The position numbers and the translations under genes were made by a program. This document shows positions 9,804-42,587 of a stretch of DNA of 64,000 bases, piece by piece (the stretch's first letter is position 1; each line of letters opens with the position of its first letter). Under the pieces are notes generated by a model. That model was not told where the DNA came from and ran no database searches. It was given only the letters and a program-made list of their open reading frames with translations. Source of the stretch: an uncultured Alphaproteobacteria bacterium (GTDB taxonomy: Bacteria > Pseudomonadota > Alphaproteobacteria > UBA6615); NCBI GenBank assembly GCA_964276015.1, contig CAXYDO010000014.1, positions 27,199 through 91,198 on the forward strand, in the 5' to 3' direction.

Positions 9804-10727
9804 ATGCCGCAAATCGAAGACGCAAAGATTTTGAAGGTGATTGAGACTGGCGCGATTTTGGGGGAAAGCCCGGTCTGGTCGGTTGCCGAAGACGTGCTGT
9901 GGTGGCTCGATATCAAGGCACCGGCTTTGCACCGCCATAACCCGGGGACGGGAGCGAACAGCAGCTGGGCGTTGCCCCAGGAGACCGGCTCGATTGTGTT
10001 GCGCACGGGCGGCGGTCTTGTGGCGGGCCTGCGGGATGGGTTTGCGTATCTGACGCCCGGTGAAGACAGCGTGGCGGTGGAGTGGATCGTTAATCCAGAA
10101 CTCGACCGGCCCGAGAGCCGCCTGAACGATGGCCGCATTGATCGACAGGGGCGCTACTGGGCGGGCTCCATGCATGATCCTGAAGGACCCCCAGCGAGCT
10201 ATTTCGAGCGGGATCCGGTGGGGGTTTTCTATCGCCTCGACGGCGATGGCACGGTCCACCGGATGATCGACGGAACTCTGGTGTCCAACGGGCTGTGCTG
10301 GTCCCCGGATGGAACCACCATGTACGCGGCGGATTCCCCGACCCGCACGATACGGGCCTGGGACTACGACACCACGAGCGGTGATATCTCGGGCGAGCGG
10401 GTGTTTGCCGTGATCCCCGATGATCTCGGGCGCGGCACGCCGGATGGGGCCATTGTCGACGCCGAAGGGGGCGTGTGGACGGCGGAATTTCGCGGGTCGC
10501 GTATTACCCGGTTTGCGCCGGATGGCACCACGGATCGAATGATTTCCCTGCCCGTCAGTCGTCCCACCTGTCCGATGTTTGGCGGCCCGGATCTGCGTAC
10601 GCTGTACGTGACCTCGGCCAAAATCATGCTCAGCCCCGAAGAACTGGCCGGTGAACCTCTCGCCGGAGCGCTGTTTGCGCTGGATGTGGGGATGGCGGGC
10701 CTGCCGGAGGCCGAATTTCCGGGCTAA
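9804..10727 (+). CDS. SMP-30/gluconolactonase/LRE-family protein
   Basis: 307 aa with ESPVW...LWWLDI, NDGRIDRQGRYWAGSM and DGxxVD motifs of regucalcin/gluconolactonase beta-propellers. Confidence 0.75.
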   Translation: MPQIEDAKILKVIETGAILGESPVWSVAEDVLWWLDIKAPALHRHNPGTGANSSWALPQETGSIVLRTGGGLVAGLRDGFAYLTPGEDSVAVEWIVNPELDRPESRLNDGRIDRQGRYWAGSMHDPEGPPASYFERDPVGVFYRLDGDGTVHRMIDGTLVSNGLCWSPDGTTMYAADSPTRTIRAWDYDTTSGDISGERVFAVIPDDLGRGTPDGAIVDAEGGVWTAEFRGSRITRFAPDGTTDRMISLPVSRPTCPMFGGPDLRTLYVTSAKIMLSPEELAGEPLAGALFALDVGMAGLPEAEFPG

Positions 10728-10816
10728 GGGTTTTCCCGAAATTGCCTTAATCCGGCCCCGTCATGGCCGTGTTGCCGCAGCACCGTAGCTTCAGCTCTGT
10801 TTGGGAGGAGAAGACG

Positions 10817-11212
10817 ATGCGCGGACTTGCAGTAGTAGCCATGCTTATGGGCGGATTGCCCCTCGCGGTTTTTATCGCGACTCTCGTCCTGAGCGATGGC
10901 GCGCCGCTGCAGTCACCATTCCGCGGGTCGTCGACAGGGTCAGGGATGTCGGCGACGGTGCACGTGACGCCGGACATCAAGCCAGGGCAACCGGCGCCGT
11001 TTACGTCAGCCAACATCCCCACTCTTGTTGCTGTGTCACAGGCCCAGGGTTGGCAGCCGCCAAGGCGACAGAAACTCGCGCGCGACCGAACGGATGCAGC
11101 CTGGAATTGCCTGCATCGGATGGCCGCAGAGGGGAATCACGATGCGCTGATGTTTCGGACCTTGATGCAGGCCGCGGATTTCACGCGACCGCCCGGTCGA
11201 CTGAATCCTTGA
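10817..11212 (+). CDS. hypothetical secreted protein
   Basis: ORF with a signal-peptide-like N-terminus (MRGLAVVAMLMGGLPLAVFIATLVLS). No recognisable family. Confidence 0.3.
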   Translation: MRGLAVVAMLMGGLPLAVFIATLVLSDGAPLQSPFRGSSTGSGMSATVHVTPDIKPGQPAPFTSANIPTLVAVSQAQGWQPPRRQKLARDRTDAAWNCLHRMAAEGNHDALMFRTLMQAADFTRPPGRLNP

Positions 11213-11375
11213 AATTTTCCATTCCGGAACCAAATAGAGAGCAGGGTTAGAGGCTAAGATGAGCTCCGGCTCTAGGAACATAGGGCGCCGAATTCGGGCC
11301 CGCATGGTCTGCGCATTGTCAGACCCCGTGTCGCATGCGCAGCCCGGATCTCGCTCGCCAAGGAGGAGGGACGGC

Positions 11376-29512: not shown

Positions 29513-31468
29513 ATGTCCGACCTAGCTTCCGCCGACCAAATCACGATCACGCTGCCCGATGGCAGCACGCGCACTCATGCGCGTGGCGTGACCGGCGCGG
29601 AGGTCGCAGCCGATATCGGCCCCGGCCTGGCCAAGGCTGCGTTGGCGGTGAAGGTCGATGGGGAGATGCGCGATCTCAACCGGGCGATCGAAGCGGACGC
29701 CCAGCTCGCGATTGTCACCATCAAGGATGACGACGCCCTGGAGTTGATCCGTCACGATGCGGCCCATGTGCTGGCGGAAGCAGTTCAGGAATTATTCTCG
29801 GGTACCCAGATCACTTTCGGCCCGTCGACCGAGGATGGTTTTTATTACGACTTCCACCGGGAGGAACAATTCTCGACCGAGGACTTCGAGGCCATCGAGA
29901 AGAAGATGGAAGAAATCGTCGGGCGCGACGAAGCGATCGAACGAGAAGTCTGGATCCATGAAGAGGTGCGCGAATTTTTTACCAAGCAAGGTGAGACGTT
30001 CAAGGCCGAATGGGTGACCGAGCTTCCCGCTGACGAAGCCATTACCATGTATCGCCAGGGTGACTGGGTCGATCTGTGCCGCGGGCCTCATCTGCCTTCC
30101 ACTGGCAAATTGCCGAAGGCCTTCAAGCTGATGAAGCTGGCGGGTGCCTATTGGCGCGGTGACTCGGGCAACCCGCAGCTGCAGCGTATCTACGGCACGG
30201 CGTGGCGGAATGAGAAGGAGCTCATGGCCCATCTCACCATGATTGAGGAGGCCGAGAAGCGCGACCATCGCCGCATCGGTCGCGAGATGAACCTGTTCCA
30301 CATCCAGGAAGAGGCTGTCGGTTCTGTGTTCTGGCACGCTAATGGCTGGACCCTCTATCGGATCGCTGAGGACTATATGCGCTCGCGTCTTGATGACGCC
30401 GGCTATATCGAAGTGAAGACACCGCAGCTGGTCGATCGGGCATTGTGGGAACGTTCGGGCCATTGGGAGAAATTCCGTGAGCACATGTTCACCATCGATG
30501 CTGAGGACGACCGGGTGCTCGCCGTTAAGCCGATGAACTGTCCGTGCCATGTGCAGATCTACAGCCATTCGGGCATGACCAGCTATCGTGACCTGCCGAT
30601 CCGAATGGCCGAGTTCGGCTCGTGCCATCGCTACGAACCCTCAGGTGCGCTGCATGGCATCATGCGGGTGCGGGCCTTCACCCAGGACGACGCCCATATT
30701 TTCTGTCGCGAAGATCAAATCGTGGCCGAGACCAAGGCCTTCTGCGAGCTGCTCCAGTCGGTCTACAAGGATTTCGGATTTACCGAAGTGGCGGTCAAAT
30801 TCTCCGATCGACCCGAAGTACGGGCCGGTGATGACGCGACCTGGGACCGCGCCGAAAAGGCGCTGATGGAGGCTACACGGGAAGCCGGTCTCGACTTCAT
30901 GCTCAATCCGGGTGAGGGCGCGTTCTACGGACCGAAGCTGGAATTTGTGCTGCGCGATGCGATCGGCCGCGACTGGCAATGCGGAACCCTGCAGGTGGAT
31001 TTCGTTCTGCCCGAGCGACTCGACGCAACTTATATCGCCGAAGATGGCGAGAAAGCCCGTCCGGTGATGTTGCATCGGGCGATTTTAGGCTCGTTCGAAC
31101 GGTTCCTGGGAATTCTGATCGAAAATTATGCCGGGCGTTTCCCGCTCTGGCTGGCGCCTGTGCAGGCGGTGGTTACGACGATCACCAGCGATGCAGATGA
31201 CTACGCCCGTGAAGTTGTTGCTGCCTGCCGGGCCGCGGGTTTGCGGGTCGAAATCGATACCCGCAACGAGAAAATCAATTATAAAATTCGCGAGCACAGC
31301 CATTTGCACGTGCCGGCGATCCTGGTTGTCGGGCGCCGCGAGGCCGAAGAGGGCACGGTTGCCATGCGTCGGCTGGGGACAAAGGATCAGGAAGTACTTG
31401 CGTTGGCGGACGTGGTCGGCAAACTTAGCGCCGAAGCGCAAAGCCCGGCGGCCCAAGACGCCGCCTGA
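29513..31468 (+). CDS. thrS: threonine--tRNA ligase
   Basis: 651 aa with a TGS domain, class II aaRS motifs and an anticodon-binding domain. The sequence is highly conserved. Confidence 0.95.
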
Positions 31469-31556
31469 CACACAACAGGTTAAACCTAAAAGACTGTACG
31501 AATAAGTCAGAACGAACCACACAAGGAGAACGGTAATCGCTAGACGCCCAGTAGAT

Positions 31557-32075
31557 GTGAGTCCCCCGAAAAGAGAGGGGCCACGGATTAACGAGGAAAT
31601 TGAGGCAACCGAAGTTCGCCTCGTTGATGAAAATGGAGAGCAGGCTGGCGTGGTGTCCTTCGAGGATGCGATGCAGCGCGCAACCGTAGCCCAGATGGAT
31701 CTGGTCGAGGTTTCGCCCAACGCCGCTCCCCCAGTTTGCAAAATCATCGATTACGGCAAGCTCAAATATCAGGAACAGAAGAAGAAGAACGAGGCGCGCA
31801 AGAAGCAGAAGACGATCGACGTCAAGGAGATCAAGCTTCGCCCCAACATCGACACGCATGATTACGACGTGAAGATGCGCAATGCGCGCCGGTTCATCGA
31901 TGATGGTGACAAGGTCAAAGTCACCCTTCGGTTCCGCGGTCGCGAGATGGCCCATCAGGATCTGGGCGCCCAGGTGCTCGAAAGAGTCCGTGGTGAACTC
32001 GACGAGGTCGCCAAGGTCGAGCAGATGCCGAAGATGGAAGGCCGTCAAATGGTGATGGTGATGTCACCGAGATAG
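31557..32075 (+). CDS. infC: translation initiation factor IF-3; the true start is probably the non-AUG codon AUC at 31536
   Basis: Conserved IF-3 sequence (PRINEEI...[10 protein letters not shown]). The track start GTG at 31557 is 27 nt from the only SD (AAGGAG at 31523-31528). An in-frame ATC at 31536 is 7 nt from that SD. Confidence 0.9.
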
Positions 32076-32102
32076 TCGGTTTCGTCTAAGGACAAAATGC
32101 AG

Positions 32103-32134
32103 AAGCCCCGCGCGGTCCCCGCCTGGGGCTTTTT
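32103..32134. terminator. rho-independent terminator between the convergent infC and methylesterase genes
   Basis: Stem AAGCCCC (32103-32109) pairs with GGGGCTT (32125-32131), followed by TTTT. The complement strand is followed by TTTTGT. Confidence 0.45.
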
Positions 32135-32176
32135 CGTGCCTGTTTTTGTCAAGCCCGGGGGTGACGAAATTTCAGA

Positions 32177-32914
32177 TTAGGTCTGCGTCCCTGCGATCTC
32201 GAGCAGAATTTTCGCCAACGCGCCCGGGGCCGAAAGTTGCGGCGCGTGGTCGGTGTCGAGGGAGTACAGATTAGCGCAGGGGGTTTCGGTGTACATGCGC
32301 TTCTGCAGCGCATTGAAGACGGACTGGTCGCGCAGGGTCTCGATATAGACGCGCGGCACGGCCCCAAATTTTTCTGCACTGAGCTGCATCTTCGAACGCC
32401 GCCCGCCTTCGGGTTGCGGGGTGAGCTGGGCGGCGGCGGCAATGGCATCGGCCGGGTCGGCGGTGTTGTAGAACACGTCGACAGCGGACTTCGGATCGAT
32501 CATCGAGGCGTAACCGTCCTCGCTATAGCTGACCCGCGCATGGGCGCCGGTCATCCAGTCCTCCCAGGCACGGCCGTAGAAATCGACGATTGATTCTCCG
32601 TCGGGAAGCAGGAAGGCACAGAGATAGACCGCGATAGCGATTTGGCCCGGGCAGAGCTCGGACACTTGGGAGGCGACCGTGCCCCCCATTGAATGGCCCA
32701 CCACAATGACGGGAGGCTCGGACGCCTCGATCAGTTCCGCGACCCGTTCGGCGTAAAGCATCGTGGTGACGTTTTCGGGGGTCGTGTCGTCGCTCCCGTC
32801 ACCAGGCAGGTCGACGGCGACGGCGGTGTGGCCAGCGGCTTCGAGAAGCGGTGCCAGCCGTTGCCAGGCCCAGGCACCCTGCCAAGCGCCGTGAATGAGG
32901 AGGAAGGTGGCCAC
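32177..32914 (-). CDS. alpha/beta hydrolase of the plant SABP2/MES methylesterase type
   Basis: N-terminus [37 protein letters not shown] and nucleophile elbow VGHSMGG parallel SABP2 ([33 protein letters not shown]...). Confidence 0.7.
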   Translation of the reverse strand: [245 protein letters not shown]

Positions 32915-32922
32915 AAACTGCC

Positions 32923-33915
32923 TCAGTCGTCCGCAGTCTCGAGCCGCGTCGAAGTGTATTTCGACACCCGGTAAGGACCCGAGAAGACCGGTGTGTATTT
33001 CGCCGGGTTGGCCGCGTCCGTGCAGGTCGGGAGGCAGGTGATTTCCGCGTCGTAATTTGGGTGATGAAAAAACACCACGGACAGGCGATCGGCGGCATCC
33101 CCGGCATCGGCCGGCGGAATGGCAACCCGATGGGGGTTGGAGATGAACCGGTCATTGGTCCAGCGCATCATCAGATCACCGATGTTGATCACGAAGGCAT
33201 TCTCGGGGGTCGAGACGTCGACCCAGCTGCCGTCACGTGTGTGCACCTGCAAGCCACCGGGGCGGTTCTCGCTGAGCAGCATGGTGAAGGTGCCGTAATC
33301 GGTGTGCGCCCCGGCGCGCCACTGGCCGGGCAGGGGCGTGGTCTCGGTCGGAGGGTAGCGAATGATGCGCAACGCCCCGATCTGGCGGTCGGTAAATTCA
33401 CGGAAAAACCCCGGTGGCAGGTCGAGGGCCAGCGCAAAGATTTCCTCGATGGTCTGGCTGAGGGTTTCAAGGCGTTTGTAGTAAGCCGTTGCGGCGTTGC
33501 GAAACGCTTTGGGTTCGCTCGGAAACACGTTCTCGATGAAGTGGCCAGCGGCTTCTGGGGCCATGTGATAGGCGTCGTCGGGGAAATCTGGCGGGCCCAT
33601 ATGGAAGACTTCCTTCAGGTCCGGGGGCGTTTCTTCGCCGGTACCAAGAGCCAGGCCTTCATCGCCGATCGCCCGGTAGCCGCGGGGCAGGGACGGGTCG
33701 GCATGGTGGATGGTGATTTTTTCATCCTTGAGTCGTGCGAAGAACGCGCGGGAATTGTGGCGCAGATTATCGATGATCTCCGGCTCGACCCCGTGTCCGA
33801 CAATGGTGAAAAAACCAACCCCCTCGCAGGCGGCACGCACCTCAGCGATGACGCGATCACGGTCGCCGTTGAGATACGGCGCGATGTCTATAACCGGGAC
33901 AGCTTGATTTACCAT
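32923..33915 (-). CDS. 2-oxoglutarate/Fe(II)-dependent dioxygenase (IPNS-like; DIOX_N plus 2OG-FeII_Oxy domains)
   Basis: N-terminus VPVIDIAPYL...VRAACEGVGFFTIVGHGV, an HxD...H triad (AHTDYGTFTML...NPHRV) and RxS. Confidence 0.75.
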   Translation of the reverse strand: MVNQAVPVIDIAPYLNGDRDRVIAEVRAACEGVGFFTIVGHGVEPEIIDNLRHNSRAFFARLKDEKITIHHADPSLPRGYRAIGDEGLALGTGEETPPDLKEVFHMGPPDFPDDAYHMAPEAAGHFIENVFPSEPKAFRNAATAYYKRLETLSQTIEEIFALALDLPPGFFREFTDRQIGALRIIRYPPTETTPLPGQWRAGAHTDYGTFTMLLSENRPGGLQVHTRDGSWVDVSTPENAFVINIGDLMMRWTNDRFISNPHRVAIPPADAGDAADRLSVVFFHHPNYDAEITCLPTCTDAANPAKYTPVFSGPYRVSKYTSTRLETADD

Positions 33916-33946
33916 GTGCGGATGTTAGCGAGTCTCGCGAGTCCCG

Positions 33947-34729
33947 TCAGGCCCGTACCGAACGGGAGTGCTGACCGCCATCGGCCATGATGATTGTGCC
34001 GGACACCCAGGACGCCCTGTCGCTGGCTAGATAGGCAGCGAGCCAGCCCATTTCTTCGGGCCGACCGGCGCGTCCGCCCGGTAGAGCCTTATGAGTTTCG
34101 CGCCAGCGTTTTTCATCGCCGAATTCCATATCCGCGTTGATCTTGGCCTGGCTGATCAGCCGATCCGTTTCGACCGGGCCGGGGTTGATGCCGACCACGC
34201 GAACCCCGTGATCATAGGATTCTGCCCCGAGGGCCCGGGTCAGCTGCATCAGGGCGGCGTTGCCCATGGAGCCGGCGATATAGGCCGCGCGCGGGCGTTC
34301 CCCGGCCATGCCGATGACGTTGACGATCACACCGGATCCGCGCTCGCACATCTTCGGATAAACCTCCCGAATCAGGCCGACAAACCCAAAGACCTTTAGG
34401 TCCCAGGCGCTCTTGATCGTGGCGTTGTCGAGCCGGGTGATATCGCCAGCCGGGATCGACCCGGCATTGTTGACCAGAATGTCGCAATCGCCTGCTGCTG
34501 CGGCCAATGTGCCGACGTCTTCCTCTTTGGAAAGGTCGAGGGCATGGACGGTGACCTGCGCTCCGAAGCGCTGGTTCAGATCGTCACGTACCTTGTTCAG
34601 GTCGGCTTCCGTGCGGGAGACAAGGTGGAGCGAACAGCCTTCCTCGGCCAAAACCTCGGCGACGGCACGGCCGATCCCCTTGCTGGCGCCCGTGACGAAT
34701 GCGGTCTTGCCGGACAGTTCCAGATCCAT
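33947..34729 (-). CDS. SDR family oxidoreductase, paralog 1
   Basis: TGASKGIGRAVA Rossmann motif, NNAG, and a YxxxK-type catalytic region (AYIAGSMGNAALMQ). About 70% identical to the adjacent SDR. Confidence 0.8.
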   Translation of the reverse strand: MDLELSGKTAFVTGASKGIGRAVAEVLAEEGCSLHLVSRTEADLNKVRDDLNQRFGAQVTVHALDLSKEEDVGTLAAAAGDCDILVNNAGSIPAGDITRLDNATIKSAWDLKVFGFVGLIREVYPKMCERGSGVIVNVIGMAGERPRAAYIAGSMGNAALMQLTRALGAESYDHGVRVVGINPGPVETDRLISQAKINADMEFGDEKRWRETHKALPGGRAGRPEEMGWLAAYLASDRASWVSGTIIMADGGQHSRSVRA

Positions 34730-34817
34730 AATTTCCCCCTCGGATGATGTTGCGTGTTTTGCGGCAGGCTAATCGCCGGACCGCGCGCAGGCAATGTCAC
34801 CAAAGGGAGTTTTAAGT

Positions 34818-35597
34818 CTATGCCGGGGGGCGTGAGTGCTGGCCGCCGTCGACCATGATGACCGTTCCTGAGACCCAGGATGCCCGCGGGCTCGCCATGA
34901 AGGCGGTCACGGCAGCCAGTTCTTCTGACAGGCCGCCACGGCCACCGGGCAGACCACCCATGGTTTCGCGCCAGCGTTCGGCATCCCCGAACTGCTTTTC
35001 CGCATTGGCCTTTGCCAGCAGCGTGAAGCGCTCGGTTTGGGTTGGCCCCGGATTGACGCCCAGTACACGAACCCCATGGTTCATGCTTTCCGCGCCGATG
35101 GTGCGGGACATCTGCATCAGGGCGGCATTGCCCATGGAGCCGGCGATATAGGCGGAACGGCCGCGCTCACCCGCCATGCCGATGACGTTAATGATCACCC
35201 CGTTGCCCCGTTCGCACATGCGCGGATAGAAATGCCGGACCAGGCCAACGGTGCCGAACACCTTGAGCTGCCAGCCTTCCTTGATGTCGTCATCGCTCAG
35301 CTTTGCCAGATCACCGCCCGGGATGGCCCCGGCATTGTTGATCAGGATATCCGCGTCACCCGCGGCGTCAGAAAGCGCCTGCACAGCTTCCGGCTTGGCC
35401 AGATCCAACGCCTGGACGGTCGCTTCGGCGCCGAAACGCTGGCTCAGATCGTCACGCACCGCGTTCAGATCGGCTTCCGTGCGGGAGACAAGATGAAGGT
35501 CACAACCTTCCTCGGCGAGCACTTCGGCGATGGCCTTGCCGATGCCCTTGCTGGCGCCGGTGATGATGGCGGTTTTTCCCTGCAGACCGAGATCCAT
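34818..35597 (-). CDS. SDR family oxidoreductase, paralog 2
   Basis: Same architecture as 33947..34729. The start was set to the ATG (MDLGLQGKTAIITGASKGIGKA). Confidence 0.8.
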   Translation of the reverse strand: MDLGLQGKTAIITGASKGIGKAIAEVLAEEGCDLHLVSRTEADLNAVRDDLSQRFGAEATVQALDLAKPEAVQALSDAAGDADILINNAGAIPGGDLAKLSDDDIKEGWQLKVFGTVGLVRHFYPRMCERGNGVIINVIGMAGERGRSAYIAGSMGNAALMQMSRTIGAESMNHGVRVLGVNPGPTQTERFTLLAKANAEKQFGDAERWRETMGGLPGGRGGLSEELAAVTAFMASPRASWVSGTVIMVDGGQHSRPPA

Positions 35598-35822
35598 GAC
35601 GTTCCCCTGATTATGTGTGTAATTGTTGTCGGGGAAGCTAGGGGCGCACTGCCGGAAAGGCAACGAAAACCGGGGGATATCCCTTGCCAGCCCCGTGTAG
35701 CGGGTCTATAACCCCGCGAATTCGAAATACCAACGGTCCGGCCGGGCGATTTGTAACGCCCAGGGCAGCCTACCCGTTGAACCATACGCGCAAGCGTTAA
35801 CCCGCAATAAGCGAGGTCCAAA

Positions 35823-36029
35823 ATGCCCAAGATGAAGACAAAGTCGTCTGCCAAGAAGCGATTCAGCTTTACGGCATCCGGCAAAATCAAAATGAAACCA
35901 GCCGGCATGCGTCACGGCTTACGCAAGCGCTCTCAGTCGATGAAGCGCAAGGCGCGTAAGATTGGCCTCATCGCGAAATCCGATGAGAAGATCCTGAAGC
36001 CGATGATGCCCTACCAGAGAAAGGGCTAG
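35823..36029 (+). CDS. rpmI: 50S ribosomal protein L35
   Basis: [14 protein letters not shown]... 68 aa. Conserved. Confidence 0.9.
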
Positions 36030-36033
36030 CTCC

Positions 36034-36399
36034 ATGTCACGCGCAAAAAGCACAGTTCAGCGCCACGCACGGCGTAAAAAAGTCCTGAAAGCTGCCAAGG
36101 GTTATCGGGGCCGGAATTCCAAGGTTTATCGCGTCGCGAAAGAACGCGTCGAGAAAGGCCTGCAATACGCCTATCGCGATCGGCGGGTGAAGAAGCGCAA
36201 TTTCCGCGCGCTCTGGATCCAGCGCATCAACGCGGGTGTTCGCGAGCACGGGCTGACCTATTCTCTGTTCATGCACGGAATGAAGCAGGCTGGTATCGAG
36301 CTCGACCGTAAGGTTCTCTCTGATCTCGCCATTCGCGAGCCGGAAGCCTTCAAGGAAATTGTCGACCAGGCGCAGAACGCCCTCAACGCATCCGCCTGA
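36034..36399 (+). CDS. rplT: 50S ribosomal protein L20
   Basis: 121 aa. [13 protein letters not shown]...[12 protein letters not shown] is a conserved L20 sequence. Confidence 0.9.
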
Positions 36400-37540: not shown

Positions 37541-39934
37541 ATGAAGTTCACCCTCGGTTGGCTGAAAGACCATCTCGACACCGAAGCCTCGGTGGGCGAG
37601 ATCGTTGAAACCCTGATTCAAATTGGTCTGGAGGTCGACTCGGTCGACGACCCGGCCGCCGAATTGTCGGCATTCCGGGTCGCCCATGTGATCGCCGCTG
37701 AGCCCCATCCTGACGCCGACCGCTTGCAGGTCTGCACTGTCGACACCGGCGAGGGCACCGTCCAGGTCGTATGTGGGGCTCCCAATGCGCGCGCCGGCAT
37801 GAATGGCGTGTTCGCTCCGGTAGGCACCTGGGTGCCGGGCATCGAGGTTGAGCTAAAAGCAGCAAAAATCCGCGGCGTTGAATCCAGCGGCATGCTCGTT
37901 TCCGAACACGAAATGGGCCTGTCCGACGAACATGATGGCATTATCGAGCTGCCCGAAGATGCGCCGCTCGGGGTACCGTTCGCCGAAATTCTCGGCATCG
38001 ATGACCCGGTCATCGATATTGAACTAACCCCGAACCGGCCTGATTGTACCGGCGTGCGCGGCATTGCCCGCGACCTGGCAGCGGCTGGTCTGGGACAGTT
38101 TAAACCGTTTGAGGCAGCCCCGGTCGGGGGCGGCTATGCCAGCCCGGTGAACTGGGCGATCGCCGGGGACGGCAATGCTTGTTCTTACGTGGTGGGACGT
38201 CATTTCCGCGGCGTGACCAACGGCCCGTCGCCGAAATGGCTGCAGGACCGCCTGCGCGCGGTTGGGCTGCGGCCGATCTCTGCGCTGGTCGATGTGACCA
38301 ATTATGTCTCGCTTGATCTGGGGCGCCCGCTCCATGTTTTCGATACGGCCAAGCTGAAGAACGACACCCTAACCATGCGTCGCGCGAAAGACGGCGAGGA
38401 TTTCATGGCGCTGGTCGAGCGGGCGTGTACCCTCGACAGTGAAATGACGGTGATCGGTGACGGCGATACGGTCGAAGCTCTGGCCGGTGTCATGGGTGGT
38501 CTCGAATCCAGCTGCACCGAGGAAACAACTGACGTGTTCCTCGAAGTCGCACTGTTCGATCCGGTCTCGGTGGCCACCACCGGGCGCAAGCTGCAAATGG
38601 AATCGGACGCCCGTTATCGTTTCGAACGCGGCGTCGATCCGGAATCTGCTGAATGGGGCGCCGAAGTTGCCGCCCGTCTGATCATCGAGTTCTGCGGCGG
38701 CGAGACCAGCGAACCGGTGCGCGCCGGCGAGATGCCCAATTGGCAGCGCAGCGTCGAGTTGCGCGCCGACCGGGTCGCGACCCTGGGTGGGGTTGAAGTT
38801 CCCCATGCGCGCCAGGCCAAGATTCTCGAAGGTCTCGGGTTTGGGGTTTCGCCAAGTGATGCCGGCGTGTCCGCCGACGTGCCATCCTGGCGGCCTGATA
38901 TTGGTGGCGAAGCTGACCTGGTGGAAGAAATTACCCGCATTCACGGCTTTGACCGGATTGCACCGGTATCCCTGGATCGGGATTCTGCGCTTCCCGCTGT
39001 GGCGATCACTCCGGAACAACGGCGTGCGGGCAATGTCCGTCGCGCCCTGGCCGCCGAGGGTCTCGACGAGGCGGTCACCTGGTCCTTCATGGGGCGGGCC
39101 CAGGCCGAGCTGTTCGGTGAGGTCCCCGAAACCATGATGCTGGCTAACCCGATTTCAAGCGAGCTCGACGCCATGCGGCCCTCGATCCTGGGCAATCTTC
39201 TGCTCGCGGCCGGTCGTAACGCCGATCGTGGTTTTGGCGACCTCGGTCTGTTCGAACTCGGACCAGCCTATCGCGACACCAGCCTCGACGGACAGCAGCT
39301 CGTGGCAGCCGGCGTGCGCCGGGGAAATGTGGATCTGGCCCATTGGTCGGGCCAGGCACGCAGTGCCGATGCGCTTGATGCAAAATCAGACGCGCTCGCT
39401 GCGATCGAAGCCGCCGGTGCGCCGGCGGGGAATGTTCAGGTCAGCCGCGACGCGCCAGACTGGTATCACCCGGGTCGCTCGGGGGCGCTGCGCCTCGGCA
39501 AGAACGTGCTCGGCTATTTCGGCGAAATCCATCCCGCCGTGTTGCGCGGTCACGATGTGCGCGGCCAGGCGGTGGGCTTTGAGGTCTTCCTCGATAATTT
39601 GCCGCCACGCAAGAATAAGGGCTCGGCCCGTCCGGCGCTGCATCTGGAAAGCCTACAGCCGGTGCGCCGTGACTTTGCGTTCCTGGTGAACACGGATGTT
39701 CAGGCCGGTGATTTGCTGCGCGCCGCCCGCGGAGCCGAACGAGAAGCCATCACGGATGTCACGTTGTTTGATGTCTATGAAGGCAATAATGTTGAAGACG
39801 GCAAGAAGTCCCTGGCCATCCAGGTGACCCTGCAGCCGACCGAAGCCACATTCACCGATGCCGAGATCGAGGATATCTCTGCAAAGATCGTCGCAGCTGT
39901 CGAAAAAGTGACCGGCGGGACACTTCGGGGTTAA
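37541..39934 (+). CDS. pheT: phenylalanine--tRNA ligase beta subunit
   Basis: 797 aa with tRNA-binding, B3/B4, B5 and FDX-ACB domains. It immediately follows pheS. Confidence 0.95.
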   Translation: MKFTLGWLKDHLDTEASVGEIVETLIQIGLEVDSVDDPAAELSAFRVAHVIAAEPHPDADRLQVCTVDTGEGTVQVVCGAPNARAGMNGVFAPVGTWVPGIEVELKAAKIRGVESSGMLVSEHEMGLSDEHDGIIELPEDAPLGVPFAEILGIDDPVIDIELTPNRPDCTGVRGIARDLAAAGLGQFKPFEAAPVGGGYASPVNWAIAGDGNACSYVVGRHFRGVTNGPSPKWLQDRLRAVGLRPISALVDVTNYVSLDLGRPLHVFDTAKLKNDTLTMRRAKDGEDFMALVERACTLDSEMTVIGDGDTVEALAGVMGGLESSCTEETTDVFLEVALFDPVSVATTGRKLQMESDARYRFERGVDPESAEWGAEVAARLIIEFCGGETSEPVRAGEMPNWQRSVELRADRVATLGGVEVPHARQAKILEGLGFGVSPSDAGVSADVPSWRPDIGGEADLVEEITRIHGFDRIAPVSLDRDSALPAVAITPEQRRAGNVRRALAAEGLDEAVTWSFMGRAQAELFGEVPETMMLANPISSELDAMRPSILGNLLLAAGRNADRGFGDLGLFELGPAYRDTSLDGQQLVAAGVRRGNVDLAHWSGQARSADALDAKSDALAAIEAAGAPAGNVQVSRDAPDWYHPGRSGALRLGKNVLGYFGEIHPAVLRGHDVRGQAVGFEVFLDNLPPRKNKGSARPALHLESLQPVRRDFAFLVNTDVQAGDLLRAARGAEREAITDVTLFDVYEGNNVEDGKKSLAIQVTLQPTEATFTDAEIEDISAKIVAAVEKVTGGTLRG

Positions 39935-40198
39935 TGTCGGAGTTGATGTTGCCCACTATACGTTGTGGACAACGTGGTGACCGGGAGGATGGATCGTGCG
40001 CGGTCTTGTTACAGTCGGATCGAAAACGACTAAACAGTTGAATTATAAAACTAAAACAAGATTATGCGTGTGTCATAATTCGGGAGTAAGATGCTTTTCA
40101 GAAACCTCGATAATCCGAATATGACAGTTATCCCCATATCTCACAGACTGTATGTCAGTGGCTATGTCCCCCAACGTTCGAGCTTTGTTCCCCTCTAG

Positions 40199-42001
40199 AT
40201 GACCGATCTTTCCCATATCCGAAATTTCTCCATCGTGGCCCATATCGACCACGGGAAATCGACGCTGGCCGACCGCCTGATCCAGGAGTGCGGCGGGCTG
40301 ACCGAGCGCGAGATGTCCGAGCAGGTGCTCGACAGTATGGAGCTCGAGCGCGAGCGCGGGATTACGATCAAGGCCCAGACCGTGCGGCTGACCTACAAGG
40401 CCAAGGACGGCAAGACCTATCATTTGAACCTGATGGACACGCCCGGGCATGTGGACTTCTCCTACGAAGTCTCCCGCTCGCTGGCGGCCTGTGAAGGTGC
40501 GCTGCTGGTGGTTGATGCCAGCCAGGGGGTCGAGGCCCAGACGTTGGCGAATGCCTATCTGGCCATCGACGCCGGTCTGGAGATGGTGCCGGTCCTTAAC
40601 AAAATTGATCTGCCCGCCGCCGAGCCGGAACGCATCCGTCAGCAGATCGAGGATGTGATCGGGATCGATGCCTCGGAAGCTCTGATGATTTCGGCCAAGA
40701 CCGGCATCGGCATCCCCGACGTTCTCGAAGCACTGGTGACAGAACTGCCCGCGCCTGAAGGCGATGCGGATGGCGAATTACAGGCCCTGCTCGTGGATAG
40801 CTGGTACGATCCCTATCTGGGTGTGGTGGCGCTGATTCGGGTGAAGCATGGCGTCATGAAGAAGGGCCAGAAGATCCGCATGATGTCGTCGGGCCACTCA
40901 TATTCCGTGGATCGGGTCGGTGTGTTTACCCCGGCGCGGACCGAGACGGGTATTCTGGGCCCGGGGGAAATCGGGTTTATCACGGCGTCGATCAAGACCG
41001 TGTCTGATTGCAATGTGGGCGATACCGTCACCGATGATCGCCTGCCGTCGGCTGAGCCGCTGCCGGGGTTCAAGCCTTCTGTGCCGGTGGTGTTTTCTTC
41101 CCTGTATCCGGCAGACACCTCGGAATACGAAGATTTGCGCGCCGCGCTCGAACGCCTGCATCTCAATGATGCGAGTTTCGAATTTGAAGCGGAAAGCTCG
41201 GCGGCGCTCGGGATGGGTTTTCGCTGTGGGTTCCTTGGCCTGCTGCATATGGAAATCATCCAGCAGCGGCTCGAACGGGAATTCGACCTTGAGATCATCG
41301 CGACGGCACCTTCGGTCGTCTATCATATCTCCCTGACCGACGGGTCCGAGATCGAGCTCCATAACCCGACCGACTATCCCGACGTGACCCGGATCGCGGA
41401 GATCGAAGAGCCTTGGATCAAGGCGTCGATCATGGTGCCGGATGAATACCTCGGCTCGGTCCTGCAGCTTTGCACGGAGCGGCGCGGTGAGCAGCTCGAC
41501 CTGACTTATGTGGGCGGGCGTGCGATGGCGGTGTATCGCCTGCCGCTCAACGAGGTCGTGTTCGATTTCTATGACCGGCTGAAATCAATCAGCCGGGGCT
41601 ATGCGAGCTTTGATTACGAGCTCGATGAGTACCGTATTGGCAATCTGGTCAAAGTCGACATCATGGTGAACAGCGAGGTGGTCGAGGCCCTCTCCATGGT
41701 GGTGCATCGCGACCAGGCCGAGGCCCGTGGCCGCCATCTGTGTGAGCGGCTCAAGGATCTCGTCCCCCGCCAGCTCTTCAAGGTGGCGCTCCAGGCCGCG
41801 ATCGGCGGCAAAGTGATCGCCCGGGAGACCGTTGGCGCCATGCGCAAGGACGTGACGTCGAAATGCTACGGCGGTGACATTTCCCGCAAGCGCAAGCTGC
41901 TGGATAAGCAGAAGGCGGGCAAAAAGAAGATGCGCGCCTACGGCAATGTGGAAATTCCGCAATCGGCCTTTATTCAGGCCCTGCGGATGGGTGACGAATA
42001 G
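40199..42001 (+). CDS. lepA: elongation factor 4
   Basis: 600 aa. The G domain ([29 protein letters not shown]) and the LepA C-terminal domain are conserved. Confidence 0.95.
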
Positions 42002-42497: not shown

Positions 42498-42587
42498 GGA
42501 GGGGTGGCCGAGTGGCTGAAGGCGCACGCTTGGAAAGCGTGTATGCGGGTGACCGTATCGAGGGTTCGAATCCCTCTCCCTCCGCCA
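42498..42587 (+). tRNA. tRNA-Ser (anticodon GGA)
   Basis: GGAGGGGTGGCCGAGTGGCTGAAGGCGCACGCTTGGAAAGCGTG-[long variable arm]-GAGGGTTCGAATCCCTCTCCCTCCGCCA. The 7-bp acceptor stem, anticodon loop TTGGAAA, long extra arm, T-loop TTCGAAT and encoded CCA all fit. Confidence 0.9.

What the first reader, a model, noticed from the sequence alone, without database searches (positions are those of the whole stretch)
32177..35597. Four-gene plant-type cassette (SABP2-like methylesterase, 2OG/Fe dioxygenase, two tandem SDR paralogs) inserted antisense between infC and rpmI
infC, rpmI and rplT are normally contiguous, with thrS upstream and pheST downstream. Here 3.7 kb carrying four convergent genes separates infC from rpmI. 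A bidirectional terminator lies at the infC side (32103-32134). A 225-nt leader remains in front of rpmI. The methylesterase closely parallels plant SABP2/MES enzymes and the dioxygenase is IPNS/flavonol-synthase-like. The two SDRs are ~70% identical tandem duplicates. Together they suggest a small catabolic module for a methyl-ester, possibly a phytohormone-like compound. The insertion also means rpmI-rplT-pheST must now use their own promoter.
Basis: partly seen in the sequence, partly recalled or inferred. Interest (0 to 1): 0.5.

Follow-up and report, generated by a model that had tools for sequence, protein, structure and literature searches.

The report
Accessory genes between infC and rpmI
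Four ordinary bacterial enzyme genes sit in a gap between two translation genes that is often filled with unrelated genes in Alphaproteobacteria; they built up in steps rather than arriving as one plant-like cassette, and the ribosomal genes next door keep an older promoter and a conserved, apparently undescribed RNA leader.

Summary
Four minus-strand genes (esterase ABH, 2OG oxygenase DIOX, SDR1, SDR2) fill the 3,747 nt between infC and rpmI.

- **Assembly:** relatives show six states of this gap: empty, SDR1 alone, SDR1+DIOX+ABH, that plus an alternative oxidase (AOX), that plus SDR2, and the window's form. So the set was assembled stepwise.
- **Functional unit:** DIOX→ABH is a conserved bacterial gene pair, adjacent in all nine other contexts examined. 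In a sister genome it lies elsewhere while SDR1 stays at infC/rpmI.
- **Not plant-derived or recent:** ABH is 34% identical to plant SABP2 but has 909 homologues in genome and metagenome data. GC3 matches the flanks, and no flanking repeats exist.
- **SDRs:** both lack the canonical Ser-Tyr-Lys catalytic residues.
- **Premise:** only 17 of 80 alphaproteobacterial infC loci have rpmI within 300 nt, and other lineages carry unrelated genes there.
- **rpmI promoter:** TTGCCA-17-TATAAC is present even in the relative without an insert, so it predates the insertions.
- **rpmI leader:** the 5'UTR holds a covarying helix around an invariant GGGCAU(G)CC. Rfam 15 has no match. Its loop complements the start AUGCCC.

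The substrate remains unknown. The cassette is of low interest; the leader is the more novel item.

The parts
31557..32075 (+). infC (IF3), left border of the gap
   Evidence: ORF. 63-86% identical (best tblastn segment) to IF3 in 80 alphaproteobacterial loci.
32101..32134 (+). Intrinsic-terminator hairpin after infC, facing the end of the leftward genes
   Evidence: Fold of -29.7 kcal/mol, z = -3.9 on the + strand, followed by U5. On the - strand z = -3.1 with a broken U-run. A 32-nt match at 91% identity lies about 30 nt after infC in L004, where AOX lies between it and ABH.
32177..32914 (-). ABH: Ser75-Asp196-His223 alpha/beta hydrolase of the SABP2/MES/PNAE/BioH3-like esterase subgroup
   Evidence: Pfam Abhydrolase_6 E = 1e-25. 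Best PDB match SABP2, E = 1e-26, 34% identity. Motif positions. 909 homologues.
32923..33915 (-). DIOX: Fe(II)/2-oxoglutarate oxygenase (His204, Asp206, His262; Arg277, Ser279), 8 nt upstream of ABH
   Evidence: DIOX_N plus 2OG-FeII_Oxy. PDB matches 9ovh, 5c3p, 3oox, 6jyv. Motifs. Directly upstream of the ABH orthologue in L081-L083, L085-L088, L092 and L093.
33947..34729 (-). SDR1: PRK06125-type SDR-fold protein, the older resident of the gap
   Evidence: NCBIfam PRK06125, 349 bits. It is the orthologue of the single SDR in L001-L003 and L005-L007 (tree). Gly140/Gly153/Asn157 replace Ser/Tyr/Lys.
34818..35597 (-). SDR2: tandem paralogue of SDR1
   Evidence: 69% identical to SDR1. 868-nt DNA repeat. 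Also present in L004 and L089 only.
35684..35712 (+). Predicted sigma-70-type rpmI promoter, TTGCCA-17 nt-TATAAC
   Evidence: Read. The -35 CTTG and the -10 TATAA are invariant in all 10 aligned sequences, including the insert-free L009. The consensus scanner did not report it; its rule requires T at position 6 of the -10 hexamer, where this site has C.
35731..35779 (+). Structured rpmI leader element: P1 CAACGG/CCGUUG, GGC/GCC, inserted hairpin GGGCG/CGCCC, loop GGGCA
   Evidence: Alignments A1, A2 and A4. Covariation. The minimum-energy fold shows P1 and the inserted hairpin. It is the top hit of model R2 in the 64-kb window. No Rfam match.
35823..36399 (+). rpmI (L35) and rplT (L20), right border. 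The rpmI start AUGCCC is complementary to the leader loop.
   Evidence: ORFs. Codon 2 is CCC in 46 of 46 loci with Pro at position 2.

Best explanation
The stretch between the infC terminator and the rpmI promoter is a transcriptionally insulated gap. Alphaproteobacteria repeatedly fill it with accessory genes. In this marine lineage it was filled in steps.

1. An atypical SDR gene (SDR1) came first and is shared by 14 of the 15 closest genomes examined, counting the window; only L009 lacks it.
2. A pre-existing two-gene module, DIOX followed by ABH, then moved in beside SDR1. Some relatives also carry an alternative oxidase gene there.
3. SDR1 was duplicated to give SDR2.

Genes have since been lost and kept in different combinations, so this is not one imported cassette.

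The four genes face leftward with gaps of 88, 31 and 8 nt. They are probably read as one unit, starting in the left part of the 225-nt spacer and ending near the hairpin shared with infC (inferred).

The conserved functional unit is DIOX plus ABH. DIOX is a 2-oxoglutarate/Fe(II) oxygenase with a complete metal and co-substrate site. ABH is a Ser-Asp-His esterase of the subgroup whose characterised members mostly hydrolyse methyl esters. Together they most likely hydroxylate and de-esterify the same small molecule, whose identity is unknown (inferred).

The two SDR-fold proteins keep the nucleotide-binding motif but lack the canonical catalytic Ser, Tyr and Lys. Their role in that chemistry is doubtful.

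rpmI-rplT-pheST are driven by their own promoter and a structured leader. Both predate the insertions.
For: **Stepwise build-up of the gap**
- Empty in L009. SDR1 only in L001 and L005-L008. SDR1+DIOX+ABH in L090 and L091. Plus AOX in L002 and L003. Plus AOX and SDR2 in L004. SDR2+SDR1+DIOX+ABH in the window and in L089, which is 97.4% identical in DNA.
- The single SDR of relatives groups with SDR1, and SDR2 forms its own branch.

**DIOX-ABH as an independent unit**
- The genome of L005 keeps SDR1 at infC/rpmI but carries DIOX-ABH (70% and 70% identity) at another place, L081.
- DIOX lies directly upstream of the ABH orthologue in all nine non-infC contexts seen.
- ABH relatives at 45% identity or less have no DIOX neighbour.

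**Vertical descent rather than import**
- ABH and DIOX divergence follows that of infC, thrS and pheS.
- GC3 is core-like. The only repeat is the SDR duplication.

**The gap is generally variable**
- 17 loci adjacent, 31 with inserts of 0.3-6.6 kb, 32 with no rpmI found downstream, out of 80.
- The inserts encode GDPD, luciferase-like, EAL/GGDEF, RND, EF-hand and cation-efflux proteins.

**Catalytic residues**
- ABH Ser75/Asp196/His223, with Gly (not Thr) after His8 and Ala (not Lys) after His223.
- DIOX His204/Asp206/His262 and Arg277/Ser279.
- SDRs Gly140/Gly153/Asn157.

**Promoter and leader predate the inserts**.
Against: - There are no expression data. The operon structure, the leftward promoter and the use of the shared hairpin are inferred from spacing only, and the minus-strand U-tract is poor.
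- The substrate is unknown. No characterised member lies close to either DIOX or ABH.
- The same-species MAG L089 has a frameshift early in DIOX. If real, DIOX is dispensable there.
- SDR2 is about as far from SDR1 (61-71%) as the deepest SDR1 orthologues are from each other. The duplication may therefore be old with several losses, or SDR2 may have been acquired separately.
- The direction of the DIOX-ABH move (into the gap, or out of it in the sister clade) is not resolved.
- Most comparison genomes are MAGs, where misassembly is possible.
Confidence: 0.65

Rival explanations
1. One four-gene plant-type cassette was inserted between infC and rpmI by horizontal transfer. It degrades a methyl-ester phytohormone such as methyl salicylate, methyl jasmonate or methyl-IAA. 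The esterase releases the acid, the oxygenase hydroxylates it and the SDRs oxidise it further.
For: - SABP2 is the best solved-structure match of ABH, and the catalytic triad is conserved.
- Plant jasmonate oxidase (6lsv), auxin oxidase (6kun) and other plant 2-ODDs appear among the DIOX matches.
- The four genes are co-oriented and tightly spaced.
Against: - The set is not one unit.
- ABH is only 34% identical to SABP2 and has hundreds of homologues in genome and metagenome data.
- DIOX matches thymine dioxygenase and bacterial proteins of unknown function far better than any plant enzyme.
- Composition is core-like and there are no mobile-element marks.
- The SDRs lack catalytic residues.
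- The relatives are pelagic marine MAGs.
Confidence: 0.07
2. The DIOX-ABH pair is an accessory step of N-heterocycle or nucleobase (pyridine- or pyrimidine-type) breakdown. The oxygenase hydroxylates a ring or a ring methyl group. The hydrolase then removes an ester, formyl or similar group, as alpha/beta hydrolases do in the nicotinate and picolinate pathways.
For: - In soil-type Alphaproteobacteria the pair lies beside a three-subunit xanthine-dehydrogenase-family enzyme, an isochorismatase-family hydrolase and a Bmp-type ABC transporter (L082, L087, L088, L092, L093).
- In L083 it lies beside an AtzD/TrzD ring-opening amidohydrolase, an amidase and a flavin monooxygenase.
- Thymine dioxygenase is the second-best solved match of DIOX, E = 1e-42.
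Against: - These neighbours are absent from the window and from the marine sister contexts L081 and L085.
- The xanthine-dehydrogenase contexts may all come from one clade, so they count as one or two observations.
- ABH did not reach the cut-off of any NCBIfam model.
- Adjacency alone does not show a shared pathway.
Confidence: 0.2
3. The four genes have no shared function. The gap simply tolerates whatever lands there, and the SDR-fold proteins are non-catalytic nucleotide-binding proteins or relics.
For: - Unrelated genes occupy the same gap in other lineages.
- SDR1 occurs there alone.
- The SDRs lack Ser/Tyr/Lys.
- DIOX is frameshifted in L089.
Against: - DIOX and ABH are adjacent in every context examined, so at least those two are linked.
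- SDR1 and SDR2 are intact and 61-92% conserved across the relatives compared, which argues against decay.
- PRK06125 is a recognised NCBIfam SDR subfamily with a curated model, which both SDRs match at 334-349 bits.
Confidence: 0.15

Closest known systems
SABP2 / MES / polyneuridine-aldehyde esterase / BioH3-type methylesterases and hydroxynitrile lyases (alpha/beta hydrolase subgroup)
   Same: - Same fold and length.
- Ser-Asp-His triad at equivalent positions (GHSMGG, RDQ, DH).
- Gly rather than Thr after the first His-Gly, and no Lys after the catalytic His. From my own recollection of the esterase/lyase switch literature, this is the esterase pattern, not the lyase pattern.
- Best solved match is SABP2, E = 1e-26. 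The mycobacterial BioH isoenzyme 7wwf is also matched (PMC9302846).
   Different: - Only 34% identity to SABP2.
- It belongs to an orthologous group from genome and metagenome data (members at 56% identity or more in the contexts checked) that is always preceded by a 2OG oxygenase gene.
- No substrate is known, and no plant link was found.
Bacterial 'isopenicillin N synthase family' 2OG oxygenases of unknown function (PaIPNS 6JYV, 3OOX) and fungal thymine 7-hydroxylase (5C3P)
   Same: - DIOX_N plus 2OG-FeII_Oxy architecture.
- HxD...H iron triad and RxS 2OG site.
- E-values of 1e-32 to 1e-42.
   Different: - It is not IPNS, flavonol synthase or ethylene-forming enzyme.
- The top match, 9ovh, is a reconstructed ancestor, not a natural enzyme. 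PaIPNS itself has no known substrate (PMC12329707).
- This protein is fixed in a pair with an esterase.
Classical short-chain dehydrogenases/reductases (for example FabG or sorbose reductase 3AI1); NCBIfam PRK06125
   Same: - Rossmann fold, TGASKGIG and NNAG motifs, about 260 aa.
- Full-length match to PRK06125, 334-349 bits.
   Different: - Gly, Gly and Asn stand at the positions of catalytic Ser, Tyr and Lys in both paralogues and in all orthologues aligned.
The two canonical SDRs of L081 gave the same alignment.
L20-dependent control of rpmI-rplT: the E. coli translational operator at infC/rpmI, the Firmicutes L20 leader (Rfam RF00558) and the Deltaproteobacteria L20 candidate
   Same: A conserved structured RNA lies directly upstream of the L35-L20 genes, in the place where ribosomal-protein feedback operates in other phyla (PMC3616713, PMC7247131, PMC6097659).
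   Different: - Different sequence and fold: a single long helix with an internal loop and the invariant GGGCAU(G)CC.
- It sits behind its own promoter rather than inside or after infC.
- No Rfam 15 match.
- The loop is complementary to the start codon plus the Pro codon.
- Protein binding is untested.

Membership tests
SABP2/MES-type methylesterase (alpha/beta hydrolase) | Alpha/beta-hydrolase fold of the SABP2/HNL subgroup | tested here: met
   Abhydrolase_6, E = 1e-25. Full-length matches to SABP2, PNAE, HNLs and MKS1.
SABP2/MES-type methylesterase (alpha/beta hydrolase) | Ser-Asp-His catalytic triad at the family positions | tested here: met
   Ser75, Asp196 and His223 align with the SABP2 GHSLGG, EDK and DH motifs.
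SABP2/MES-type methylesterase (alpha/beta hydrolase) | Esterase rather than lyase residues (Gly not Thr near the oxyanion hole; no Lys after the catalytic His) | tested here: met
   IHGAW and DHAPQ are read from the sequence. Which residues discriminate the two activities is taken from memory of the published SABP2/HbHNL switch work.
SABP2/MES-type methylesterase (alpha/beta hydrolase) | Hydrolysis of a methyl ester such as MeSA, MeJA or MeIAA | not testable with these tools
   Needs an enzyme assay.
'Plant-type' origin of the hydrolase and oxygenase | Closest relatives are plant proteins, or composition is foreign to the host genome | tested here: not met
   909 homologues from genome and metagenome data, up to 96% identity, against 34% to SABP2. 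GC3 0.74-0.78 against 0.67-0.75 in the flanks.
Fe(II)/2-oxoglutarate oxygenase (DIOX_N + 2OG-FeII_Oxy) | HxD...H iron-binding triad and RxS 2OG-binding motif | tested here: met
   His204, Asp206, His262, Arg277 and Ser279.
Isopenicillin N synthase or flavonol synthase proper | Specific similarity to IPNS or FLS/ANS above other family members | tested here: not met
   IPNS E = 1e-12 and ANS E = 1e-10, against thymine dioxygenase E = 1e-42 and bacterial 3oox E = 2e-35.
Classical SDR oxidoreductase | TGxxxGxG nucleotide-binding motif and NNAG | tested here: met
   TGASKGIG at residue 13 and NNAG at residue 87 in both proteins.
Classical SDR oxidoreductase | Catalytic Ser, Tyr-x-x-x-Lys | tested here: not met
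   Gly140, Gly153 and Asn157 stand at those positions in SDR1, SDR2 and all nine orthologues aligned.
Mobile cassette or genomic island | Flanking repeats, an integrase or transposase, a tRNA target, or deviant composition | tested here: not met
   The only repeat is the internal SDR duplication. Only the four enzyme ORFs are identified in the gap. Composition is core-like.
Ribosomal-protein leader (cis-regulatory RNA) | Conserved secondary structure with covariation in the 5'UTR of a ribosomal-protein operon | tested here: met
   On A4, 100% of cells in the counted pairs (four outer P1 pairs plus the invariant GGC/GCC) form standard pairs. There are 44 double-sided changes against 13 +/- 4.8 in shuffles (0 of 500 reach the observed value), and slid controls pair at 23-40%. 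A2 gives 95.8% paired. All 31 R2 hits in 1.35 Mb lie upstream of rpmI.
Ribosomal-protein leader (cis-regulatory RNA) | Membership of a described family (Rfam L20_leader or others) | tested here: not met
   No Rfam 15 match at E <= 1 in the window or in L009, L013 and L031.
Ribosomal-protein leader (cis-regulatory RNA) | Binding of L20 or L35 and feedback repression | not testable with these tools
   Needs binding and reporter assays. A simple motif search of E. coli 23S rRNA found no GGCAUGC-type copy, so rRNA mimicry is neither shown nor excluded.

The most novel reading that the evidence does not exclude
The rpmI-rplT operon of most Alphaproteobacteria is controlled by an undescribed ribosomal-protein leader. 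It consists of a covarying helix that presents an invariant GGGCAU loop. That loop can pair with the equally invariant start AUGCCC of rpmI and so hide the start codon, probably under the control of L20 or L35. Because the operon carries its own promoter and leader, and infC has its own terminator, the infC-rpmI gap is insulated. That insulation would explain why it became a recurrent landing place for accessory genes such as the four seen here.
Probability: 0.4. Interest if true: 0.55.

Novelty: new member of a known kind. Interest (0 to 1): 0.3.

Why it matters
The cassette matters little. It is a set of ordinary, uncharacterised enzymes in a variable spot. Its main lesson is a caution: 'plant-like' best hits and a broken textbook operon do not imply horizontal transfer.

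Two by-products are more useful.
- **The DIOX-ABH pair.** It is a well-defined, widespread two-gene module with no known substrate. Its neighbours in some genomes are N-heterocycle breakdown genes. That gives a concrete handle on the unexplained bacterial 'IPNS-family' oxygenases.
- **The rpmI leader.** Known L20 leaders cover Gammaproteobacteria, Firmicutes and a Deltaproteobacteria candidate. If the leader is confirmed, it would add an alphaproteobacterial solution with a simple, testable mechanism.

Tried and rejected
- **Rfam scans.** The region, the whole window and three related loci gave only tRNAs and chance hits.
- **Promoter scanner.** It reported nothing in 31400-36100. Its rule requires T at position 6 of the -10 hexamer, where the comparative candidate has TATAAC. 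The promoter was found by alignment instead.
- **First covariance model (R1).** It was built from leaders without the inserted hairpin and missed the window's clade. A second model found the window's leader as the top hit, but weakly: 17.8 bits, E about 0.05.
- **L081 SDRs.** I tested whether the two SDRs beside DIOX-ABH in L081 are orthologues of SDR1 or SDR2. They are not (25-31% identity).
- **AOX in the window.** I looked for AOX or remnants of it in the window and found none.
- **Neighbour genes in the window.** I looked for the xanthine-dehydrogenase, isochorismatase, Bmp, AtzD and TRAP neighbours. None is present except an unrelated amidase match at 60.7 kb.
- **Metagenome scan with an ABH alignment.** It returned mostly distant paralogues and only three orthologues.
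- **Top oxygenase match 9ovh.** It is a reconstructed ancestor and says nothing about function.
- **23S rRNA comparison.** E. coli 23S rRNA has no GGCAUGC motif. The key L20-mimicry paper (PMC1370305) is not held.
- **Literature.** Searches for an alphaproteobacterial rpmI/L20 leader found none.
- **H-type pseudoknot.** I considered one between the loop GCAU and the AUGC box 1-4 nt after P1. I rejected it on geometry, because a 12-bp stem cannot be spanned by so short a linker. This is inference only.

Full report
**1. The observation**

The ORF map shows thrS (29513-31468), infC (31557-32075), four minus-strand genes, then rpmI (35823-36029), rplT, pheS and pheT. The four genes are 32177-32914 (ABH), 32923-33915 (DIOX), 33947-34729 (SDR1) and 34818-35597 (SDR2, counted from the ATG that matches its paralogue). 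The infC-rpmI distance is 3,747 nt.

Pfam and NCBIfam give an alpha/beta hydrolase, a DIOX_N + 2OG-FeII_Oxy oxygenase and two SDRs of subfamily PRK06125. The SDRs are 69% identical and form an 868-nt tandem DNA repeat.

The hairpin at 32101-32133 is strong and has a U5 tail on the + strand. On the - strand the tail is interrupted. The '225-nt leader' is really a divergent spacer that contains a promoter.

**2. The proteins**

- **ABH.** Its best solved match is tobacco SABP2 (E = 1e-26), followed by hydroxynitrile lyases, polyneuridine-aldehyde esterase, pheophorbidase and a mycobacterial BioH isoenzyme (PMC9302846). Identity to SABP2 is 34%. Ser75, Asp196 and His223 align with the SABP2 triad. 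The residues that distinguish esterases from lyases in this subgroup (recalled from the literature) are of the esterase type.
- **DIOX.** It has His204/Asp206/His262 and Arg277/Ser279. Its best match, 9ovh, is a reconstructed ancestor of the ethylene-forming enzyme. The related bacterial protein PaIPNS has no known substrate (PMC12329707). Thymine dioxygenase comes next at E = 1e-42. IPNS and anthocyanidin synthase are far weaker.
- **SDR1 and SDR2.** Both keep TGASKGIG and NNAG. Gly140, Gly153 and Asn157 stand where Ser, Tyr and Lys should be. This holds in all orthologues aligned and resembles the nearest solved structure, 6jh7.

**3. Close relatives**

A scan of one genome per species with IF3 returned 80 alphaproteobacterial loci. 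I mapped them by tblastn and added contigs that encode close ABH homologues. The gap then shows six states:
- empty (L009, 212 nt);
- SDR1 only (L001, L005-L008);
- SDR1+DIOX+ABH (L090, L091);
- the same plus an alternative oxidase next to infC (L002, L003; PF01786, E = 7e-84 in L004);
- AOX+ABH+DIOX+SDR1+SDR2 (L004);
- the window's form, shared with L089.

L089 is 97.4% identical over 7.5 kb and so is the same species (GCA_041891895.1). It has a frameshift early in DIOX.

The single SDR of relatives is the orthologue of SDR1. SDR2 forms a separate branch at 61-71% identity. The window has no AOX and no trace of one.

**4. DIOX-ABH is a unit of its own**

ABH has 909 homologues with E <= 1e-10. 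In the complete genome that gave L005 (SDR1 alone at infC/rpmI), the orthologues of DIOX (70%) and ABH (70%) lie together elsewhere (L081). There they sit beside unrelated SDRs (25-31% identity) and a TRAP transporter.

In every other context examined, DIOX lies directly upstream of ABH: L082, L083, L085-L088, L092 and L093. ABH relatives at 45% identity or less have no such neighbour.

The neighbours differ by lineage:
- a three-subunit xanthine-dehydrogenase-family enzyme, an isochorismatase-family hydrolase and a Bmp-type ABC transporter in L082, L087, L088, L092 and L093;
- an AtzD/TrzD hydrolase, an amidase and a flavin monooxygenase in L083;
- ABC exporters in L081 and L085;
- an integrase-rich region in L086.

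None of these neighbours is in the window.

**5. The premise of contiguity**

Among the 80 loci, rpmI follows infC within 300 nt in 17. It follows after 0.3-6.6 kb in 31. It is not found in the available downstream sequence in 32, and 14 of those have essentially the full 10 kb of downstream sequence.

The inserts of other lineages encode glycerophosphodiesterases, luciferase-like monooxygenases, EAL/GGDEF proteins, an RND pump, an EF-hand protein and a cation-efflux protein. A filled infC-rpmI gap is therefore common in this class.

**6. Origin**

GC3 of the four genes is 0.74-0.78, against 0.67-0.75 for thrS, infC, rpmI, rplT, pheS and pheT. The GC profile shows no step. No flanking repeats were found.

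The divergence of ABH and DIOX between the window, L002-L004 and L081 parallels that of the housekeeping genes. This fits old residence in the lineage with relocation, duplication and loss. It does not fit a recent import.

**7. rpmI promoter and leader**

An alignment of the spacer from the window and L001-L009 (A1) shows TTGCCA (35684-35689), 17 nt, then TATAAC (35707-35712). The -35 CTTG and the -10 TATAA are invariant in all ten sequences, including the insert-free L009. From memory, this resembles the CTTGAC-N17-CTATAT promoters described for Sinorhizobium.

Downstream lies a helix. P1 is CAACGG/CCGUUG, followed by an internal loop and an invariant GGC/GCC. A variable hairpin is inserted in the window's clade, followed by a loop ending in GGGCA(U).

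The same architecture was found upstream of rpmI in 46 of 49 loci that have rpmI.
- On a MAFFT alignment of 30 leaders (A4; the variable insert was removed, which I state as a manipulation), the four outer P1 pairs and the invariant GGC/GCC are paired in 100% of cells. There are 44 double-sided changes against 13 +/- 4.8 in shuffles (0 of 500 reach the observed value). Slid controls pair at 23-40%.
- The untouched 22-sequence alignment A2 gives 95.8% pairing, with four covarying pairs.
- Models R1 and R2 hit only rpmI leaders at their significant thresholds (E < 1e-5 for R1, E <= 0.1 for R2) in about 1.4 Mb. R2 ranks the window's element first in the 64-kb window, though weakly because of the 20-nt insert. 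The minimum-energy fold of the predicted 5'UTR contains P1 and the inserted hairpin.
- Rfam 15 has no match. The papers I could search list L20 leaders only for Gammaproteobacteria, Firmicutes and a Deltaproteobacteria candidate (PMC3616713, PMC7247131, PMC6097659).

The loop GGGCAU is the complement of AUGCCC. Codon 2 of rpmI is CCC in 46 of 46 loci with Pro at position 2, whereas CCC makes up 41% of the other Pro codons of rpmI. The three loci without the motif start AUGUC. These counts are not phylogenetically independent. The segment-picking step that preceded A4 chose, within a small range, the register with the most pairs.

**8. Synthesis**

- **Shown:** the gene content, the catalytic motifs, the six locus states, the independence and constant adjacency of DIOX-ABH, the core-like composition, the general variability of the gap, and a conserved promoter and covarying leader that predate the inserts.
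- **Inferred:** co-transcription of the four genes; joint action of DIOX and ABH on one small molecule (hydroxylation plus ester hydrolysis); a doubtful catalytic role for the SDRs; feedback control of rpmI by pairing of the leader loop with the start codon under L20 or L35.
- **Unknown:** the substrate. Plant-hormone esters are possible but nothing specific supports them. N-heterocycle intermediates have some support from context in other genomes.

**9. Verdict**

The finding is real but ordinary. It is a stepwise-assembled, vertically inherited accessory locus in a commonly variable gap, not a plant-type cassette insertion. The leader RNA noticed on the way is the more novel item and deserves its own test.

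Noticed in passing
window 35684-35830; also L001-L079 upstream of rpmI (for example L013:11116-11161): A conserved rpmI promoter and a covarying 5'UTR helix surround an invariant GGGCAU(G)CC. The loop is complementary to the invariant rpmI start AUGCCC. Rfam 15 has no match. This is a candidate alphaproteobacterial L20/L35 leader.
   Followed up: yes
L004:10600-11274 (-), L002 and L003 about 10632-11290 (-): An alternative oxidase gene (PF01786, E = 7e-84) lies between infC and ABH in three relatives, co-oriented with the other genes. It is absent, without remnant, from the window.
   Followed up: partly
window 33947-34729 and 34818-35597: Both SDR paralogues, and all orthologues aligned, have Gly/Gly/Asn at the canonical catalytic Ser/Tyr/Lys positions but keep the nucleotide-binding motif. 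The nearest solved structure (6jh7) is similarly atypical. Whether they are enzymes is open.
   Followed up: partly
L089:3643-4647 (same species as the window, 97.4% DNA identity): The only indel in 7.5 kb of alignment falls near codon 32-42 of DIOX and splits the gene. It could be real pseudogenisation or a MAG assembly error.
   Followed up: partly
L082, L087, L088, L092, L093; L083: In other Alphaproteobacteria the DIOX-ABH pair lies beside a three-subunit xanthine-dehydrogenase-family enzyme, an isochorismatase-family hydrolase and a Bmp-type ABC transporter. In L083 it lies beside an AtzD/TrzD hydrolase and an amidase. This hints at N-heterocycle or nucleobase catabolism.
   Followed up: partly
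L010-L066, between infC and rpmI: The same gap carries lineage-specific genes. A glycerophosphodiesterase (GDPD) gene was confirmed in L018, L026, L028 and L038, with a luciferase-like monooxygenase gene also in L018 and L038. Others are EAL/GGDEF (L035, L054), an RND pump (L064), an EF-hand protein (L012) and a cation-efflux protein (L043).
   Followed up: partly
window 39750-40250: GC falls to 0.48 in the spacer after pheT (ends 39934) and before the next large ORF (40199-42001). This is the lowest value in the profiled stretch.
   Followed up: no
window 42498-42584 (+): This is the only Rfam gathering-level hit in the 64-kb window, a tRNA of 87 nt (a long-arm type by length).
   Followed up: no
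window 34730-34817: An 88-nt spacer separates SDR2 from SDR1. The DNA duplication extends 11 nt upstream of both start codons. I did not check whether the spacer holds an internal promoter or terminator.
   Followed up: no
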